Source: a virus (taxonomy: Duplodnaviria; Heunggongvirae; Uroviricota; Caudoviricetes). From it: a DNA stretch of 64,000 nucleotides. The DNA lies in IMG/VR virus record IMGVR_UViG_3300036766_001364, positions 64,001 to 128,000 of that record; one strand, given 5' to 3'. Shown here piece after piece: positions 24,592-30,997 of this stretch; position 1 is the stretch's first letter; the number at the start of each line of letters is the position of its first letter. The translations under genes were made by a program, and so were the position numbers. Below the pieces are notes generated by a model, which was not told the DNA's origin, made no database searches, and worked only from the letters and a program-made list of their open reading frames with translations.

Positions 24592-24896
24592 AAGGACTCG
24601 ACGCGCACGCCTCGCTCAGTCGGGGTAACGCGGGAAAACTGCAGTTCGCCGCCCGGCAGCGGCGTGAGGACGGGCGAAGTACAAGCCCGTCTGCCGGATC
24701 CCTCGACGGCGGCGCTTCACGGCGTCGGTCAACCGTCGAGGGACCAGACACGGCGCCTCGGCCATGGGGCGCGCTCCCGGCTTGGTCCCCTATGGGGGCG
24801 ATAAGATCCGGAATCGAGCGTCATCGCAACGCCCGGCGTCCAGCCGATCACTGGACGACTGGAGTGAGGAGAAGCCTCCTCAGGGCGCCGTTCAAT

Positions 24897-25499: not shown

Positions 25500-25501
25500 T
25501 C

Positions 25502-25858
25502 ATGAGGACCGACCTGTTCGACGAGCCGCTCGAGAGGGCGATGGGCGCGTCGATCACCGTCCACCGCGACCCGTCTGGGCGCTGCGTGTGGACGGCCAGG
25601 CGCGGGAGCCGAGCGACCAGGTTCACAGAGCCGCGCGTCCCGGCGCTCCCCGTGCGTCCAGCGTCGCCGAGGAACCCATTCGCTCTCGCGCGGTACCTGG
25701 CTGCGCGCCGCGAATGGGAGGGAGAGGTCAGGAGGCTCCGAGAGGAGTGGGACCTCAAGCGCGCTCTGGGACTGCAGCAGATGAAGGCTAGGCTCGACGC
25801 AGACAGAGAGCAGACTCGGGCCGTATCCCCTCTGCCTTCGAAGCAGGCGAAAGGGTAA
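25502..25858 (+). CDS. hypothetical protein inside tRNA array (3' end overlaps atypical tRNA)
   Basis: ORF from ATG 25502, no recognised motif. Confidence 0.35.
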   Translation: MRTDLFDEPLERAMGASITVHRDPSGRCVWTARRGSRATRFTEPRVPALPVRPASPRNPFALARYLAARREWEGEVRRLREEWDLKRALGLQQMKARLDADREQTRAVSPLPSKQAKG

Positions 25859-25897
25859 TCGGAGCCCATGTGGGTTCGAGTCCCACCGGCCCGACCA
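25817..25897 (+). tRNA. atypical tRNA-Arg(TCG)-like, no D-arm at the normal position
   Basis: CGGGCCG/CGGCCCG-A-CCA acceptor, arm TCTGC-CTTCGAA-GCAGG, canonical T-arm; only 7 nt between acceptor and anticodon stem. Confidence 0.65.
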
Positions 25898-25900
25898 AGT

Positions 25901-26457: not shown

Positions 26458-26496
26458 ACAATCGACCCGTCTGCGCGATCGCGGTACTATAGACGC

Positions 26497-26715
26497 GTGG
26501 CAGCCAAGTGTCCGGTCTGCGGCGAAGAGATCCCGGCGGATCGAACGGGAGCGATCGACCACCTCGCGGAGGAGCACCCCAAGGAGCTCATCAGGATGTC
26601 GCGCGTCGACAACGACATGAGCTGGGCCGGGGGAGAGCTCGAGAAGGCGTTCGGCCTCCAAGAGGGGCTGGTGAAGACCGACTCGTCGGACCCGTTCGCC
26701 CCCAACCAGCGATAG
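26497..26715 (+). CDS. small C2H2-like zinc-finger protein
   Basis: CPVC...HLAEEH; preceded by GGTACTAT -10-like box. Confidence 0.6.
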   Translation: MAAKCPVCGEEIPADRTGAIDHLAEEHPKELIRMSRVDNDMSWAGGELEKAFGLQEGLVKTDSSDPFAPNQR

Positions 26716-26716
26716 C

Positions 26717-26969: not shown

Positions 26970-27500
26970 TTAATTTTCAGGAATCAGAGCCATGGCAGTT
27001 CTGATGTCTGCACACGAGAGCAGTCCTCTCGTCTTTTCAAAATGATGGTTCGGACATAGCCCAGCCAGGTTTTCGGGGAACACTGAATCCCATGGATTTT
27101 CAAACATAGATCTTGGGATGACGTGGTCTACTTGAACGATGCGCTCATAACCGCAGATACAACAGACGTGCGGATGCAACGAGAAATAGATATCGCGAGA
27201 CACCTGACCGATGGCAACCTGTTTGCTGTGCGACGTGGGCCATGGTGACGTGAGATGGTTGAAACATAGAGAGCCAGTTCGTGTGGCAGTCGGCGATCCG
27301 CAGTGTTTGCAGACATGAGGTGCCCTAGTTCTTTTGTGGAATAGAGCGTTATTGACTTTGGCCGAACATGATCTTGAGCAGTATTTGAGCAGAGTTTGAT
27401 TGTCACAGTCTGGCGCGTGACAGCAGTGGGTGACATGTTTGACTGCGGCAGTCTTCCGTCGTGACGCAACAGCTTTTTCGCGATGGGCGGCAGTCCACAC
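26970..27500 (-). CDS. HNH homing endonuclease (antisense, inside tRNA array)
   Basis: CCICGY...VDHVIP...NLAGLCPNHH; N-terminal YCSRSC Zn motif; lower GC than flanks. Confidence 0.85.
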   Translation of the reverse strand: MWTAAHREKAVASRRKTAAVKHVTHCCHAPDCDNQTLLKYCSRSCSAKVNNALFHKRTRAPHVCKHCGSPTATRTGSLCFNHLTSPWPTSHSKQVAIGQVSRDIYFSLHPHVCCICGYERIVQVDHVIPRSMFENPWDSVFPENLAGLCPNHHFEKTRGLLSCADIRTAMALIPEN

Positions 27501-27548
27501 GGATAGAGCTTACCGGCAATCAGGGTTCGATTCCCTGCGACTCTACCA
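27501..27548 (+). pseudogene. partial tRNA (3' D-loop, T-arm, acceptor strand, CCA)
   Basis: GGATAGAGC...CAGGG-TTCGATT-CCCTG-CGACTCT-A-CCA with no 5' half or anticodon arm. Confidence 0.6.
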
Positions 27549-27587
27549 ATTTCATGATCCGCGGCGTGGCGGTTACAATCGCGCCAA

Positions 27588-28318
27588 TGGACGCCATCCG
27601 GTTGCTCAAGGGAATCATCGAGATGACTGATGGCGGATATGAGTATGTCGCGCCAGGTGAGAAGCCGCCGCATGGAGAGCCTCTTGAGCAGGGCCCGCGC
27701 GGCGGCAGGCGATATATCCCCGGCGGTCAGCCTTCAGCGGTGCAGAAGCCGGTCAAGAAGGGACCGATCGACATCGCACGGATGTTCACTGAGGGGCGTA
27801 ACCCGCGGATGCAGCCCGACCCGCAGTGGATGCTTACGTCCAAGCAGGCGAAATGGCTCAAGGACGTGATGGACCGCAGCAAGAAGTTCGGCGGTTCGGT
27901 AGGTAAGGGCGTGCTGTACGAGCTTGAGGACGACGATGGTCATATGCCGTTCTCAGTGATGTTCATGGACAACGGCGCGGCGATCCTGCACGGTCATGAT
28001 CACGAGAAGCCCGAGCGTGAAAAGCCAGAGCAGCCGAAGTCAGAAGAGCCCGGCAAGACGACGCCGTATGATCAGGTGCGCAACATACTGCGGGGCGATC
28101 GCGGGCAGCTCTATCGGAACACGCTCCATTGGAAGCTCGATCCCAAGTGGACGGGCGTACTGAGAGACTACTTGACGGCGCGAGGGATCGATATAGATGC
28201 GGTCACCGGTAGGGCGTATGTCCCACCGGAAGGCGCCGGGAAGTACGACGGCTATCTGGTCGACTTCTATGACGACACCGCCAGGGTGTCACATACCTTC
28301 GATCGATCGCACAGTTAG
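27588..28318 (+). CDS. hypothetical protein with GPRGG module (start 27554-27626 uncertain)
   Basis: YEYVAPGEKPPHGEPLEQGPRGGRRY. Confidence 0.65.
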
Positions 28319-28320
28319 AC

Positions 28321-28396
28321 ACAGACGTAGCTCAAATGGCAGAGCGCCGATCTCATAAGTCGGATTATTTCGGTCCGAGTCCGAACGTCTGTACCA
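28321..28396 (+). tRNA. trnM: tRNA-Met(CAT) elongator or Ile2; T-loop TCCGAGT
   Basis: Loop CT-CAT-AA. Confidence 0.82.
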
Positions 28397-28403
28397 AGCG
28401 ATC

Positions 28404-28537
28404 AACGGCCCATCGGCAGTCATGGCCGCGGGATACTTCGGATAGCCGGTTCGAATCCGGTCGTCGTCCCGAGAGGGACGAATGAGTAGCCAATCCTAGC
28501 GGTTGGTCCCGCTCCGATTTTCCTCCGATGGGCCGTT
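28404..28537 (+). ncRNA. YrlA-like Y RNA 1
   Basis: Terminal stem AACGGCCCATCGG/CCGATGGGCCGTT enclosing T-arm GCCGG-TTCGAAT-CCGGT and a capped acceptor-like hairpin; upstream of Ro60. Confidence 0.75.
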
Positions 28538-28560
28538 CTCCACCGTGGTACTATTCCCTC

Positions 28561-28627
28561 GCTGCGGCAGTCAGCAATCCGGGTTCATCTTCGTCGATAT
28601 CCCCGAGTCGCGATGATCCTCCGCAGC
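28561..28627 (+). ncRNA. short Y-RNA-like element 2
   Basis: GCTGCGG/CCGCAGC stem followed by shared CAGTCA motif. Confidence 0.5.
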
Positions 28628-28644
28628 ACGGATAGAACAAGAGC

Positions 28645-28785
28645 GGGTCCTGGCACTCACTTCTGGGATACTTCGTATGGTTCCGCGGGTCGACGGTTCG
28701 AATCCTTCTCGGTGGGCGAAAGCCCAACGATAGCTCAGCGGTAGAGCAGCGGATAAGACACCCGGTCGAATATGGTCCAGGGCTC
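28645..28785 (+). ncRNA. YrlA-like Y RNA 3
   Basis: GGGTCCTGG/CCAGGGCTC stem; T-arm TTCGAAT, then hairpin TCGGTGGGC-GAAA-GCCCAACGA, then D-arm TAGCTCAGCGGTAGAGC (permuted tRNA order); GGTCGAA near 3' end. Confidence 0.8.
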
Positions 28786-28807
28786 ATTTAAGAAGGAGGG
28801 CACGAAG

Positions 28808-30283
28808 ATGCCGAGGTTCAACACGGCGACGATCTCGCGGACCGTCCCGACGGCGGTCAATCGCGCTGGCGGGCTCGCCTACGACGAATCGGCGAAGCTC
28901 AGGCTGGTCAGCCACGCCCTCACATCGTTCGTGAACGACCAGTATTACAGGTCGGCGGGAGACGGGATCGCCGAGATGCGCGGCCTGCTCGATGTGGTCG
29001 ACCCGATGTTCGCGGCGAAGGCGGCGATCGTGGCGCGGACTCAGTTCGGGATGCGCAGCATCTCGCACGTCATCGCGGGTGAGCTCGCCGGCCGCGTCAA
29101 GGGACAGTCGTGGATGAAGCATTTCTTCCGCAGGGTCGCGCTGCGGCCCGACGACATGCTCGAGATCCGTGCCTACTACAACCAGTATGTCGCGACCGGC
29201 AAAGGAACCCGCAAGGACGGCCTGCCGATGGTCCCGAACCAGATGAAAGACGGCTTCGCCCTCCGCTTGAGGGAGCTCGACGGCTACCGGCTCGCGAAGT
29301 ACCGCGGAGACGGCAGGACCGTCAACATGTTCGACGTCGTCAACGCGACGCATCCCGGCAAGACCGAGCCGATCGACGCCCTGATGAAGGGGACGCTCGG
29401 GTCGGCGGACACCTGGGAGGTCGCGCTCTCGGCAGCCGGGCAGGCGGAAGGGGAGGACGTCGATACCAAGGACCTCAAGGCCGACGCGTGGAAGAGGCTC
29501 CTGGAGGAGCGCAAGCTCGGGTACTTCGCGCTGCTGCGCAACCTGCGCAACATCATGAAGCAGGCGCCAGAGGTCGTGACGCTCGCGTGCGAGCAGCTGA
29601 TGGACGAGGACGCCATCAGGAAGAGTCTCGTGCTCCCGTTCCGGTTCACGACGGCGTACGACACGCTCCAGAAGGAGGCCGGCGCGTCACAAGTCCTCCA
29701 TGCAGTCTCGCGTGCCATGGACATCTCGGTCGGGAACGTCGCGATGCCTGAGGGCACGACGCTCGTCGCGCTCGACGTGTCGGGATCGATGGGCGGCCGA
29801 CCGATCGAGATCGGGTCGCTCTTCGCGGCGGCGTTCGCGTCGCGCGGAGCAGACCTCATGCTCTTCACGGGCGACGCGAAGTACCTGTCGGTCCCGCTCG
29901 GGGCTTCGGCGAGCGCGATCGTCTCCGACATCAAGCGGATGATGACGCCGCGAGGCACAAACTTCCACTCGATCTTCGAGACGGCGAAGGTCGCGTACGA
30001 CAACATCGTCATCATCTCTGACATGCAGGGGTGGATGGCGAGCGAGCGCCAAGCGCTGGGCGGCGCTCCGCGAAAGGCGTACGCAGAATACCGCAAGAGG
30101 ACGGGAGCGACGCCGAAGATCTTCAGCTTCGATATCGCCGGTTACGGGACGCTCCAGTTCCCAGAGGACGACGTGTACGCCCTCGCCGGGTTCAGCGACA
30201 AGACGCTCGACATCGTCTGCGCCCTCTCTATCGGAGGCAAGGACGCGCTCGTCAGGACAGTCGAGGAGACCACATTCGACTGA
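28808..30283 (+). CDS. rsr: Ro60/Rsr TROVE-domain RNA-binding protein with C-terminal vWA
   Basis: NRAGGLAY, AAIVARTQFGMRS, LGYFALLRNLRNI, VLPFRF, LDVSGSM, ISDMQ; RBS AGGAGG before ATG 28808. Confidence 0.9.
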   Translation: MPRFNTATISRTVPTAVNRAGGLAYDESAKLRLVSHALTSFVNDQYYRSAGDGIAEMRGLLDVVDPMFAAKAAIVARTQFGMRSISHVIAGELAGRVKGQSWMKHFFRRVALRPDDMLEIRAYYNQYVATGKGTRKDGLPMVPNQMKDGFALRLRELDGYRLAKYRGDGRTVNMFDVVNATHPGKTEPIDALMKGTLGSADTWEVALSAAGQAEGEDVDTKDLKADAWKRLLEERKLGYFALLRNLRNIMKQAPEVVTLACEQLMDEDAIRKSLVLPFRFTTAYDTLQKEAGASQVLHAVSRAMDISVGNVAMPEGTTLVALDVSGSMGGRPIEIGSLFAAAFASRGADLMLFTGDAKYLSVPLGASASAIVSDIKRMMTPRGTNFHSIFETAKVAYDNIVIISDMQGWMASERQALGGAPRKAYAEYRKRTGATPKIFSFDIAGYGTLQFPEDDVYALAGFSDKTLDIVCALSIGGKDALVRTVEETTFD

Positions 30284-30366
30284 GGGGAGTCAGGGCAGTC
30301 ATCGCGAGCGTTCCATCGTCAGGCTTAGAACCTGCTAGCCGTTACGCTCCTGAGTCTATCCTCCCC
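30284..30366 (+). ncRNA. Y-RNA-like element 4
   Basis: GGGGAG/CTCCCC and GAGCGT/ACGCTC stems, GGCAGTCA motif, directly after the rsr stop. Confidence 0.45.
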
Positions 30367-30378
30367 CGACGCTCGAAC

Positions 30379-30455
30379 GCCGCCGTAGCTCAGTCTGGAA
30401 GAGCGGCCGTTTTGTAAGCGGCAGGTCGCGGGTTCGATGCCCGTCGGCGGCCCCA
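30379..30455 (+). tRNA. trnT: tRNA-Thr(TGT)
   Basis: Loop TT-TGT-AA. Confidence 0.88.
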
Positions 30456-30772: not shown

Positions 30773-30775
30773 ATT

Positions 30776-30997
30776 CCTCTCTCGTCTAACGGAAGGACGC
30801 CACTCCCCCTGAAGGTCTGTTCAGTCTGTGGGCTGAGTCCAGAATGGAACGGGCAGTCATTAATTTTCATTCTCGATCACGTCAACGGCGTGAGGAACGA
30901 CAATCGACTCGAGAATCTCAGGTTCGTCTGTCTTAATTGCAACCGCCAGCTTCCGACGTTTTGTGGCCGTAATCTCAAGCGTTCCTCCATAGTGTAA
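30776..30997 (+). pseudogene. 5' half of a tRNA fused to a truncated HNH endonuclease fragment
   Basis: TCCTCTC-TC-GTCTAACGGAAGGAC-GCCAC, then a frame reading CSVCGLSPEWNGQSLIFILDHVNGVRNDNRLENLRFVCLNCNRQLPTFCGRN with no start codon. Confidence 0.75.

What the first reader, a model, noticed from the sequence alone, without database searches (positions are those of the whole stretch)
28404..30366. Ro60 gene bracketed by up to four Y-RNA-like elements sharing a GGCAGTCA...TACTTCG motif, embedded in the tRNA array
Seen: three stem-closed RNAs upstream and one downstream of rsr. Two are full permuted tRNA mimics (T-arm, capped acceptor, D-arm). Three share GGCAGTCA and one has GGCACTCA; GGGATACTTCG recurs in elements 1 and 3, and GGGTTCATCTTCG in element 2. 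Known: bacterial Rsr binds YrlA/YrlB RNAs, is linked to RNA decay and RNA-damage responses, and phage-encoded Rsr/YrlA exists. Inference: a diversified Y-RNA set co-transcribed with 38 tRNAs suggests a tRNA quality-control or anticodon-nuclease decoy system, with different tethers for different partners. No RtcB is present in this window.
Basis: partly seen in the sequence, partly recalled or inferred. Interest (0 to 1): 0.75.

Follow-up and report, generated by a model that had tools for sequence, protein, structure and literature searches.

The report
Phage Ro60 gene with Y-RNA array
A large uncultured phage carries a Ro60-type RNA-binding protein gene preceded by three small partner RNAs (two shaped like tRNAs) inside its tRNA gene cluster; this is a clear but fairly ordinary example of a layout that turns out to be common next to this gene in phages and bacteria.

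Summary
Three stem-closed RNAs precede it and a weaker one follows.

- **E1 (28404-28537) and E3 (28647-28783)** are YrlA-type Y RNAs: T arm, GNRA-capped acceptor-like hairpin, D arm.
- **E2 (28562-28626)** is a short hairpin that keeps the bulged closing stem but has a degenerate inner motif.
- **E4 (30284-30367)** is only a candidate.

I found this signature next to rsr in 67 of 71 viral loci and in bacterial loci, always on the rsr strand, in arrays of up to about eight copies, with strong covariation.

Models trained only on other loci score:

| Element | Score |
|---|---|
| E1 | 28-31 bits |
| E3 | 20-25 bits |
| E2 | 7.5-12 bits (third-best hit in the window) |
| E4 | missed by two of three models |

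Rfam YrlA gives only a sub-threshold hit, on E3. RtcB is absent from the window but is encoded about 76 kb upstream in the same genome.

The decoy or tRNA-repair function remains inference. Verdict: a new member of a known kind, of moderate interest.

The parts
28321..28396 (+). tRNA-Met(CAT), the last tRNA before the Y-RNA array. It ends 7 nt before E1's closing stem.
   Evidence: ARAGORN; Rfam tRNA 59.7 bits.
28404..28537 (+). E1, a YrlA-type Y RNA. 13-bp closing stem (28404-28416 with 28525-28537); bulged C at 28417; AG:CU pairs; UCA; helix GCGGG/CCCGC; AUACUUCG; T arm GCCGG-UUCGAAU-CCGGU; 7-bp hairpin capped by GAGA; divergent D-like arm; 3' strand GAUUUUCCU.
   Evidence: MFE z = -3.35. 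Full-length matches to models built only from other loci: R1 17.5 bits, R2 28.4 bits (E = 1.5e-4 over the whole window), R3 30.8 bits (E = 5e-7). Aligned with relatives.
28562..28626 (+). E2, a short Y-like hairpin. Stem CUGCGG/CCGCAG; bulged C at 28568; AG:CU; UCA; helix CGGG/CCCG; degenerate inner motif UUCAUCUUCG in a pyrimidine-rich loop. An outer extension can pair at 28551-28557 with 28630-28635.
   Evidence: Passes the strict module scan. R1 9.8 bits, R2 7.5 bits, R3 12.4 bits (third-best hit in the window, E = 0.14), matched through the closing stem only. Occupies the 'short' slot of the long-short-long layout seen in L020, L022, L051 and L013. Aligned with short relatives.
28647..28783 (+). 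E3, a YrlA-type Y RNA. Stem GUCCUGG/CCAGGGC; bulged C at 28654; AC:GU (a compensatory variant of AG:CU); UCA; helix CUGGG/CCCGG; AUACUUCG; extra 4-bp helix CCGC/GCGG; T arm; 9-bp hairpin capped by GAAA; canonical D arm GCUC-AGCGGUA-GAGC; AAGACAC before the 3' helix strand.
   Evidence: Rfam YrlA RF02553 27.7 bits, below the gathering score of 69, but the best hit in the genome. R2 19.8 bits, R3 25.2 bits (E = 2.2e-5 over the whole window). Aligns along its whole length with relatives' long elements.
28790..28807 (+). Ribosome-binding region (AAGAAGGAGGG) and spacer in front of the rsr start codon.
   Evidence: Read from the sequence. The 491-aa product starting at 28808 is identical to the database protein P0001.
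28808..30283 (+). rsr: a Ro60 orthologue, TROVE ring plus vWA domain with an intact DxSxS MIDAS motif.
   Evidence: Pfam TROVE 1.1e-15. phrog_850 'RNA-binding protein' 3.7e-36. 4130 homologues, about 50% identity to bacterial Rsr. D323/S325/S327 are invariant. Nearest solved structure is phiLo Ro60, 9KOP/9L5Y.
30284..30367 (+). E4, a candidate degenerate Y-like hairpin that starts directly after the rsr stop codon. It has two tandem AGUCA copies (GGGGAGUCAGGGCAGUCA), helix GAGCGU/ACGCUC, UUCCAUCG in place of UUACUUCG, and 3' strand GUCUAUCCU-CCCC.
   Evidence: R1 11.8 bits (second-best in a 10-kb search with filters off). Not found by R2 or R3. MFE z = -1.07. Layout compared with short relatives.
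30379..30455 (+). tRNA-Thr(TGT), the first tRNA after rsr and E4. The array continues to 31058.
   Evidence: ARAGORN.

Best explanation
This is a phage-borne Rsr (Ro60)/Y-RNA module set inside the phage's tRNA gene array.

**Composition.** rsr is preceded by three Y RNAs in the order long tRNA-mimic (E1), short hairpin (E2), long tRNA-mimic (E3). It may be followed by a decayed fourth copy (E4).

**Docking module.** Each RNA closes with a terminal stem that carries a bulged pyrimidine, two further pairs (AG:CU, or AC:GU in E3) and an internal loop (UCA opposite a U/C-rich strand). Then come a second helix and the (A/U)UACUUCG motif. This module is conserved next to rsr in hundreds of elements elsewhere, so it is most likely the Rsr docking site.

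**Variable inner part.** This is either a permuted tRNA (T arm, capped acceptor-like hairpin, D arm) or a small pyrimidine-rich loop. By analogy with characterised Y RNAs it is the effector side.

**Inferred mechanism.**
1. The RNAs are made as part of the same long + strand transcript as the tRNAs and rsr.
2. They are cut out by tRNA-processing enzymes.
3. They bind phage Rsr.
4. They gate its cavity or tether it to a host exoribonuclease such as PNPase, or to tRNA-binding factors.
5. Structured or damaged RNAs, plausibly tRNAs, are then degraded or handed to repair. The phage's own RtcB ligase fits such an RNA-repair and quality-control programme.

**Shown versus inferred.** Shown: gene identity, RNA architecture, family membership of E1 and E3, conservation and covariation of the module. 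Inferred: expression, processing, Rsr binding, the partner and the biological role.
For: **Rsr identity:**

**E1 and E3 anatomy:**

**Signature enrichment:** the bipartite signature occurs at 1.44 per kb in the 1 kb upstream of rsr on the rsr strand in 80 viral loci, against 0.16 per kb elsewhere.

**Distribution of matches:**
- Model R1, built from 17 short elements of other loci, finds 136 matches in 67 of 71 viral loci. All are on the rsr strand; 133 are upstream and 3 downstream; there are 1-6 copies per locus.
- Model R2 finds 202 matches in 80 bacterial rsr loci, all on the rsr strand, in arrays of up to 8.

**Covariation:**
- 85% of cells are paired against 60% in shuffles. The covariation score is 0.678 against 0.222, and at most 0.235 in the slid controls. 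All 15 pairs show changes on both sides.
- In the long elements, 26 of 28 pairs are compensatory, including the T arm and the capped hairpin.

**Independent models on the window:** E1 28.4/30.8 bits, E3 19.8/25.2 bits, E2 7.5/12.4 bits. These are the top three hits of the whole 64-kb window with R3.

**Supporting detail:**
- E3's AC:GU replaces AG:CU, as it does in both L080 elements.
- The base after AGU is locus-specific (99 of 123 within-locus pairs agree; 0 of 2000 permutations reach this). The rare C variant (11 of 136) is carried by all four window elements.
- The long-short-long layout is shared with L020, L022, L051 and L013.
- RtcB is in the genome.

**Literature:**
- Y RNAs lie upstream of rsr, are processed from one precursor, and tRNA-Asp is co-transcribed with them in D. 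radiodurans (PMC4201824).
- Phage phiLo Ro60 binds two upstream Y-like RNAs and host PNPase (PMC12135203).
Against: - No expression or binding data exist for this phage.
- Rfam YrlA does not reach its gathering score: 27.7 against 69 bits for E3, nothing for E1. Adjacent tRNA pairs in the array score up to 24 bits with the same model.
- The published GNCGAAN0-1G motif is not matched literally.
- E2 matches the independent models only through its closing stem (E = 0.14-1.2).
- E4 is missed by two of three models.
- Folding-energy z-scores of E2, E3 and E4 are ordinary.
- No close relative's DNA could be obtained, so there is no orthologous covariation for E2 or E4.
- Concordance of the AGUCA variant within a locus could reflect recent duplication rather than co-evolution with Rsr.
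- Promoter and terminator scans were uninformative.
Confidence: 0.85

Rival explanations
1. Only E1 and E3 are working Y RNAs, an ordinary YrlA pair. E2 and E4 are decayed duplicates or mere spacer or processing hairpins of the polycistronic transcript, and Rsr does not bind them.
For: - E2 scores only 7.5-12.4 bits and only through its outer stem. E4 is absent from the R2 and R3 results.
- Both deviate from the nearly invariant UUACUUC core.
- Their MFE z-scores are -1.7 and -1.1.
Against: - E2 has a perfect bulged closing stem, a configuration found only about 7 times in 344 kb. It sits in the slot where relatives carry a bona fide short element.
- Both E2 and E4 carry the rare locus-specific AGUCA variant.
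- Downstream elements exist in relatives L080, L082 and L073.
- E4 was second-best in 10 kb with R1.
Confidence: 0.2
2. The tRNA-shaped E1 and E3 act mainly as decoys or competitive inhibitors for host tRNA-cleaving defence nucleases or other tRNA-binding enzymes. They protect the phage's and host's tRNAs, largely independently of Rsr-directed decay.
For: - Full T arm, acceptor-like and D arm mimicry without an anticodon loop.
- Location in a 37-tRNA array.
- RtcB in the genome.
- A competitive-inhibitor role was proposed for Salmonella YrlA, which is not cut by the SOS-induced anticodon nuclease (PMC7790460).
Against: - The mimic lacks the anticodon stem-loop that most anticodon nucleases recognise.
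- The same RNAs occur next to rsr in many bacteria that are not under phage-defence pressure.
- The most conserved part is the Rsr-type docking module, not the tRNA part.
- There is no direct test.
Confidence: 0.1
3. The upstream elements work chiefly in cis, as a structured leader through which Rsr autoregulates the translation or stability of its own mRNA, rather than as free small RNAs.
For: - E3 ends about 25 nt before the rsr start and 7 nt before its ribosome-binding site.
- 133 of 136 family elements lie directly upstream of rsr on the same strand.
Against: - In M. smegmatis and D. radiodurans the upstream Y RNAs are processed into stable free RNAs bound by Rsr (PMC4201824).
- Salmonella Y RNAs lie downstream of rsr.
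- Arrays of up to 8 copies are hard to explain as a leader.
Confidence: 0.07
4. The elements are remnants of broken tRNA genes, or chance hairpins in a GC-rich tRNA array, with no connection to rsr.
For: - tRNA-tRNA junctions in the array give up to 24 bits with Rfam YrlA, close to E3's 27.7.
- An HNH endonuclease remnant shows that the array has been disrupted.
Against: - The T and D arms are joined by self-complementary GNRA-capped hairpins, which junctions of two tRNAs do not form.
- E1 and E3 match full-length models trained on rsr-linked elements of unrelated loci at whole-window E = 5e-7 and 2e-5, and nothing else in the tRNA array does.
- GGGATACTTCG (about 0.03 expected per strand) occurs in both.
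Confidence: 0.02

Closest known systems
YrlA-type bacterial and phage Y RNAs (Chen et al. 2014, PMC4201824; Rfam RF02553; crystal structure in bioRxiv 10.1101/312249)
   Same: - Encoded within a few hundred nt of rsr on the same strand.
- The 5' and 3' ends pair into a stem carrying the protein-binding module.
- The effector module is a permuted tRNA: (V), T arm, acceptor-like capped hairpin, D arm.
- E1's 7-bp capped stem resembles that of M. smegmatis YrlA, which is an RNase P and CCA-adding substrate.
   Different: - Scores are below the Rfam gathering threshold. None of the 48 related viral records searched reaches it either (best 44.8 bits).
- The published 5' motif GNCGAAN0-1G appears here as (A/U)UACUUCG(G/U)AU, sharing only the CG core.
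- An additional conserved bulged-stem element (GG-Y-AGUGA opposite UUUUCU-CC) lies outside the Rfam model.
- E1 lacks the V hairpin and has a divergent D arm. E3 has an extra 4-bp helix.
Second, short Y RNAs: S. Typhimurium and M. smegmatis YrlB, D. radiodurans Yrn2 (PMC4201824)
   Same: E2 (and E4, if real) is a long hairpin closed by the 5' and 3' ends, with the same docking module as the tRNA-like partner and a small pyrimidine-rich loop. It is encoded in tandem with the YrlA-type RNA.
   Different: - No sequence homology could be tested because the published sequences are held only in figures.
- E2's inner conserved motif is degenerate.
- Binding is unknown.
Thermus phage phiLo Ro60 with Yrl1 and Yrl2 (PMC12135203; PDB 9KOP, 9L5Y)
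   Same: - A phage-encoded Ro60 with Y-like RNAs directly upstream.
- phiLo Ro60 is the nearest solved structure (E = 2.9e-13).
- That system binds host PNPase in vitro, which gives a precedent for the proposed mechanism.
   Different: - Only 24.8% protein identity.
- phiLo has two Y-like RNAs defined by a CGAA bulge, with no tRNA mimic reported.
- The window's Rsr belongs to the bacterial-type clade (about 50% identity to Chloroflexota, Bacteroidota and Verrucomicrobiota Rsr).
D. radiodurans rsr locus (Yrn1, Yrn2, RNAs a, b, d and tRNA-Asp in one precursor; PMC4201824)
   Same: Several Rsr-linked small RNAs in tandem upstream of rsr, co-transcribed with a tRNA. Some carry T arms.
   Different: Deinococcus Y RNAs are metazoan-like (GGUCCGA-type helix) and their tRNA-like part is arranged differently. 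Here the context is a 37-gene phage tRNA array.
rsr-yrlBA-rtcBA RNA repair operon of Salmonella (PMC7790460)
   Same: The same genome holds Rsr, Y RNAs and an RtcB ligase. That operon is linked to tRNA cleavage.
   Different: - Here rtcB lies about 76 kb from rsr, not in one operon.
- RtcA and RtcR were not searched for.
- No Rnl-type ligase (PF09414), CCA-adding enzyme (PF01743) or AAA_33-type kinase (PF13671) was detected.

Membership tests
Rsr / Ro60 protein | TROVE (HEAT-repeat ring) domain | tested here: met
   PF05731 at 1.1e-15, 58 bits against a cut-off of 23. phrog_850 at 3.7e-36.
Rsr / Ro60 protein | C-terminal vWA domain with a MIDAS DxSxS motif | tested here: met
   D323, S325 and S327 are invariant in a 24-sequence alignment. 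Relatives carry PF25045/PF13519.
Rsr / Ro60 protein | Full-length homology to characterised or solved Ro60 proteins | tested here: met
   phiLo Ro60 9KOP/9L5Y at E = 2.9e-13 over residues 21-478. Xenopus and human Ro60 match over the central region.
YrlA Y RNA (Rfam RF02553; Chen 2014) | Within about 4 kb of rsr and on the same strand | tested here: met
   E1 to E3 lie 25-404 nt upstream and E4 lies 1 nt downstream, all on the + strand.
YrlA Y RNA (Rfam RF02553; Chen 2014) | Score at or above the Rfam gathering threshold (69 bits) | tested here: not met
   E3 scores 27.7 bits and E1 has no hit at E <= 10. No related viral record reaches the threshold either.
YrlA Y RNA (Rfam RF02553; Chen 2014) | tRNA-like module: T arm, acceptor-like stem-loop, D arm in permuted order | tested here: met
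   E3 aligns to the Rfam T, AS and D positions and to relatives' long elements. E1 has a canonical T arm, a 7-bp GAGA-capped hairpin and a divergent D-like arm.
YrlA Y RNA (Rfam RF02553; Chen 2014) | GNCGAAN0-1G motif near the 5' end | tested here: not met
   The aligned positions read CUUCGUAUG (E3) and CUUCGGAUA (E1), so only the CG core is kept. Relatives have UUACUUCG instead.
YrlA Y RNA (Rfam RF02553; Chen 2014) | Bound by Rsr in vivo or in vitro | not testable with these tools
   Needs RIP/CLIP or EMSA.
rsr-linked Y-like RNA family defined here (models R1, R2, R3) | Full-length match to a covariance model trained only on other loci, significant over the whole window | tested here: met
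   Met for E1 (28.4 and 30.8 bits; E = 1.5e-4 and 5e-7) and E3 (19.8 and 25.2 bits; E = 0.023 and 2.2e-5).
rsr-linked Y-like RNA family defined here (models R1, R2, R3) | The same test applied to E2 | tested here: inconclusive
   9.8, 7.5 and 12.4 bits. It is the third-best hit in the window, but E = 0.14 and only the closing stem aligns. It passes the strict stem scan.
rsr-linked Y-like RNA family defined here (models R1, R2, R3) | The same test applied to E4 | tested here: not met
   11.8 bits with R1 only (E = 0.23 in 20 kb). Not reported by R2 or R3 at E <= 10.
rsr-linked Y-like RNA family defined here (models R1, R2, R3) | Closing stem with a bulged pyrimidine followed by two pairs (AG:CU or the covarying AC:GU) | tested here: met
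   E1 and E2 have C bulge + AG:CU. E3 has C bulge + AC:GU. E4 is ambiguous. Across the family the pair is GC 92 / CG 5 / GU 13.
YrlB-type short Y RNA | Long hairpin closed by the termini, small pyrimidine-rich loop, encoded beside a YrlA | tested here: met
   E2 is a 65-nt hairpin whose 17-nt loop region contains 11 pyrimidines, lying between E1 and E3. Homology to published YrlB was not testable.

The most novel reading that the evidence does not exclude
The phage deploys a graded set of Y RNAs: two different tRNA mimics and one or two short hairpins. All are keyed to its own Rsr by a lineage-specific docking variant (AGUCA instead of AGUGA). This lets one Rsr ring be retargeted to several partners during infection and, together with phage RtcB and the 37 phage tRNAs, forms a counter-defence that clears or repairs tRNAs cut by host anticodon nucleases. 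More generally, the locus-specific base in the docking heptamer would be a specificity code between each Rsr and its own Y-RNA array.
Probability: 0.15. Interest if true: 0.7.

Novelty: new member of a known kind. Interest (0 to 1): 0.45.

Why it matters
For this window the result is mainly annotation: a phage Rsr with two YrlA-type RNAs, one probable short Y RNA, and an RtcB elsewhere in the genome.

The wider by-product may be more useful.
- A compact bulged-stem plus UUACUUCG signature finds both tRNA-like and short Y RNAs next to rsr in hundreds of viral and bacterial loci that Rfam's YrlA model scores below threshold.
- It shows tandem arrays of up to about eight copies.
- One docking-site base is concordant within loci.
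- Short Y RNAs were said to have 'eluded bioinformatic discovery' (PMC4201824). I found no description of such arrays in the papers I could search, but two reviews (PMC10870794, PMC6047535) were not available.

If the docking variant really tracks the cognate protein, it gives a testable handle on how Ro60 recognises Y RNA. Phage loci that combine rsr, Y RNAs, RtcB and full tRNA sets are natural systems for testing whether Ro60 RNPs take part in the contest over tRNA cleavage.

Tried and rejected
1. **Rfam YrlA as a classifier.** It gave only a sub-threshold hit on E3. Neighbouring tRNA pairs score nearly as high, so I did not use it as the test.
2. **Close relatives, for orthologous covariation.**
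   - The 77%-identical protein P0002 has no contig on record.
   - Viral and metagenome scans with it found only relatives at 42-51% identity.
   - L003 is the same phage, with 3 SNPs in 7.5 kb and none in the elements.
3. **Pattern scan of viral contigs** for GCAGTCA-N6-14-GATACTTCG. It gave 83 hits, none positive with model R2, consistent with chance.
4. **Folding energy as evidence.** Only E1 is significant (z = -3.35). E2, E3 and E4 are not.
5. **Promoter and terminator scan.** Counts were no higher than in shuffles.
6. **Extra GGCAGTCA at 30852 and the GGGATACTTCG copy at genome position 52065.** Both lie in coding sequence (an HNH remnant and an ORF) and were rejected as elements.
7. **Other RNA-repair enzymes.** Rnl-type ligase (PF09414), CCA-adding enzyme (PF01743) and AAA_33 kinase (PF13671) are absent. 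No recognised domain is found in the nine other ORFs scanned around rtcB or in the ORFs that flank rsr.
I reached bacterial loci through the genome-contig scan instead.
9. **Reviews PMC10870794 and PMC6047535** are not held.
Full report
**What is there**

The window is bases 64001-128000 of a 171,975-bp, 64.6% GC viral record estimated to be 98% complete. ARAGORN finds 37 tRNA genes between 22664 and 31058, all on the + strand.

The largest gap in the array (28397-30378) holds an ORF at 28808-30283. Its 491-aa product has these properties:
- It matches Pfam TROVE (1.1e-15) and phrog_850.
- It has thousands of homologues at about 50% identity in Chloroflexota, Bacteroidota and Verrucomicrobiota.
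- It keeps the DxSxS MIDAS residues.
- Its nearest solved structure is the Ro60 of Thermus phage phiLo.
- Among deposited phages the best match is an uncultured 635-kb phage at 47%; cultured phages are at or below 34%.

It is therefore an Rsr of the bacterial type.

**The four elements**

*E1 (28404-28537).*
- A 13-bp closing stem, a bulged C, AG paired to CU, then UCA.
- A GCGGG/CCCGC helix and AUACUUCG.
- A perfect T arm, a 7-bp hairpin capped by GAGA, and a divergent D-like arm.

*E3 (28647-28783).*
- A 7-bp closing stem, a bulged C, AC paired to GU, then UCA.
- A CUGGG/CCCGG helix and AUACUUCG.
- An extra CCGC/GCGG helix and a T arm with one mismatch.
- A 9-bp hairpin capped by GAAA and a canonical D arm.

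*E2 (28562-28626).* A 65-nt hairpin with the same bulged closing stem, but UUCAUCUUCG in a pyrimidine-rich loop.

*E4 (30284-30367).*
- It begins right after the stop codon.
- It has two tandem AGUCA copies and a good inner helix.
- It has UUCCAUCG in place of the inner motif, and only a weak or ambiguous closing stem.

The capped self-complementary hairpins between the T and D arms rule out the idea that E1 and E3 are junctions of two broken tRNAs.

**Chance**
- GGGATACTTCG is expected about 0.03 times per strand. It occurs in E1, in E3 and once inside a coding region.
- A strict scan for the bulged closing stem with A[G/C]UCA finds seven sites in 344 kb of strand. Three of them are E1, E2 and E3.
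- Only E1 folds significantly better than shuffles.

**Rfam**

RF02553 (YrlA) gives only 27.7 bits for E3 against a gathering score of 69, and nothing for E1. tRNA pairs in the array reach 24 bits. In 48 related viral records no hit reaches the threshold either, although sub-threshold hits cluster upstream of rsr, often in pairs. The curated model therefore does not cover this clade.

**Relatives**

I collected 80 viral loci encoding Rsr at 41-50% identity.
It occurs at 1.44 per kb in the kilobase upstream of rsr on the rsr strand, against 0.16 per kb elsewhere.
- Seventeen short elements align cleanly. The order is: stem, GG, bulged Y, AGUGA, helix, UUACUUCG, loop, AAAACAC, helix, AUUUUCU, CC, stem.
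- Model R1, built from them, finds 136 matches in 67 of 71 loci. All are on the rsr strand, 133 upstream and 3 downstream.
- Copies per locus are distributed as follows:

| Copies per locus | Number of loci |
|---|---|
| 1 | 33 |
| 2 | 13 |
| 3 | 11 |
| 4 | 7 |
| 5 | 2 |
| 6 | 1 |

- 43 matches are long, 40 of them with a T loop; 93 are short.

Covariation in the family:
- 85% of cells are paired, against 60% in shuffles.
- The covariation score is 0.678, against 0.222 in shuffles and at most 0.235 for slid partners.
- All 15 pairs change on both sides. A caveat is that this alignment was fitted to the model.
- A MAFFT alignment of 30 long elements gives 26 of 28 pairs with compensatory changes, including the T arm and the capped hairpin.

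Model R2, built from the 136 matches, finds 202 matches in 80 bacterial rsr loci. All are on the rsr strand, in arrays of up to eight copies.

rsr lies beside or inside arrays of at least five tRNAs in six of 60 viral loci. The order long, short, long, rsr, at similar spacing, recurs in L020, L022, L051 and L013.

**Testing the window with models that never saw it**

| Element | R1 (10 kb, filters off) | R2 | R3 (whole window) |
|---|---|---|---|
| E1 | 17.5 bits | 28.4 bits (E = 1.5e-4, whole window) | 30.8 bits (E = 5e-7) |
| E3 | 8.4 bits | 19.8 bits (E = 0.023, whole window) | 25.2 bits (E = 2.2e-5) |
| E2 | 9.8 bits | 7.5 bits (2.2-kb search) | 12.4 bits (E = 0.14) |
| E4 | 11.8 bits | absent | absent |

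- With R1 these four are the top four hits in the 10-kb search.
- R3 was built from the 150 best matches in bacterial rsr loci. With it, E1, E3 and E2 are the three best hits of the window and the next hit scores 9.6 bits.

Two further observations favour E2, and weakly E4.
- The pair after the bulge covaries: AC:GU in E3 and in both L080 elements.
- The base after AGU is concordant within loci (99 of 123 pairs; 0 of 2000 permutations). The rare C form (11 of 136) is shared by all four window elements. Shared descent by duplication could also produce this.

My estimates that each is a real Y RNA: E1 and E3 about 0.95, E2 about 0.7, E4 about 0.35.

**Mechanism**

Known work gives these precedents:
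- Y RNAs upstream of rsr are processed from one precursor and bound by Rsr in M. smegmatis. A tRNA is co-transcribed with them in D. radiodurans. A YrlA with a 7-bp acceptor-like stem is cut by RNase P and receives CCA (PMC4201824).
- In D. radiodurans the Y RNA tethers Rsr to PNPase.
- phiLo Ro60 with its two upstream Y-like RNAs binds host PNPase in vitro (PMC12135203).

By analogy I propose co-transcription with the tRNA array, excision, binding to phage Rsr through the bulged-stem and UACUUCG module, and recruitment of an exoribonuclease or tRNA-binding factor by the inner module.

The phage also encodes a complete RtcB (genome 15180-16532, 293 bits), about 76 kb from rsr. That fits an RNA repair and quality-control programme, possibly aimed at tRNAs cut by host nucleases. 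The decoy idea has been voiced for Salmonella YrlA (PMC7790460). None of these functional steps is shown here.

**Comparison and novelty**

Phage rsr genes with Y RNAs, pairs of Y RNAs, and several Rsr-linked RNAs co-transcribed with a tRNA are all known. The window is a new member of that kind.

In the papers I could search I found no description of any of the following:
- the extended docking signature;
- its use to find short Y RNAs;
- arrays of up to eight copies;
- the locus-specific docking base.

**Limits**
- No close relative's DNA was available.
- E-values from the session's models are rough.

Noticed in passing
window 30773-30988 (+): The 210-nt gap between tRNA-Gln(CTG) and tRNA-Gln(TTG) is one open frame. 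It encodes an HNH endonuclease fragment (CxxC ... DHxNG..N..N ... CxxC) with no obvious start codon, and matches positions 102-157 of a 245-residue PHROG profile (phrog_10822, 2.7e-19). It is probably the remnant of a homing endonuclease that landed in the tRNA array. The fifth GGCAGTCA of the region lies inside it by coincidence.
   Followed up: partly
outside the window: genome G000:C1:15180-16532 (+), read as L181:4181-5533: A complete RtcB RNA ligase gene (PF01139, 293 bits, profile positions 1-426), about 76 kb upstream of rsr. None of the nine other ORFs scanned in that stretch has a Pfam match.
   Followed up: partly
L077:2395-2525 and L080:2633-2763: In these two rsr-linked Y elements the tRNA-like part is not permuted. 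A D arm and an anticodon-arm-like hairpin come before the T arm, followed by a capped hairpin. The docking module can therefore carry either a permuted or a normally ordered tRNA mimic.
   Followed up: no
L244:482-1831 (Chthoniobacteraceae MAG); also L245, L194, L190: Bacterial rsr genes are preceded by tandem arrays of 6-8 Y-like elements, all on the rsr strand. That is far more than the two to five Rsr-linked RNAs described in the papers I could read.
   Followed up: partly
L053:2523-2599; L056:2447-2540 and 2590-2665; L046:2820-2896: ARAGORN calls tRNAs, some with undetermined anticodons, that overlap Y-like elements. Automatic annotation may therefore mislabel these tRNA mimics as tRNA genes.
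   Followed up: no
window 24592-24896, 25500-25900, 26458-26716: Gaps of 305, 401 and 259 nt inside the tRNA array have no tRNA, no Y-like element and no recognised protein family. The ORFs tested in them gave no PHROG hit.
   Followed up: partly
window 27461-28318 (+): A 285-aa ORF sits between tRNA-Ile and the tRNA-Met that precedes E1. It has no Pfam or PHROG match, and its position inside the tRNA/rsr transcription block makes it a candidate partner.
   Followed up: partly
48 viral records behind L004-L053: Rfam YrlA (RF02553) reaches its gathering score in none of them (best 44.8 bits), although sub-threshold hits sit directly upstream of rsr. The curated model appears to miss this whole clade of Y RNAs.
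   Followed up: partly
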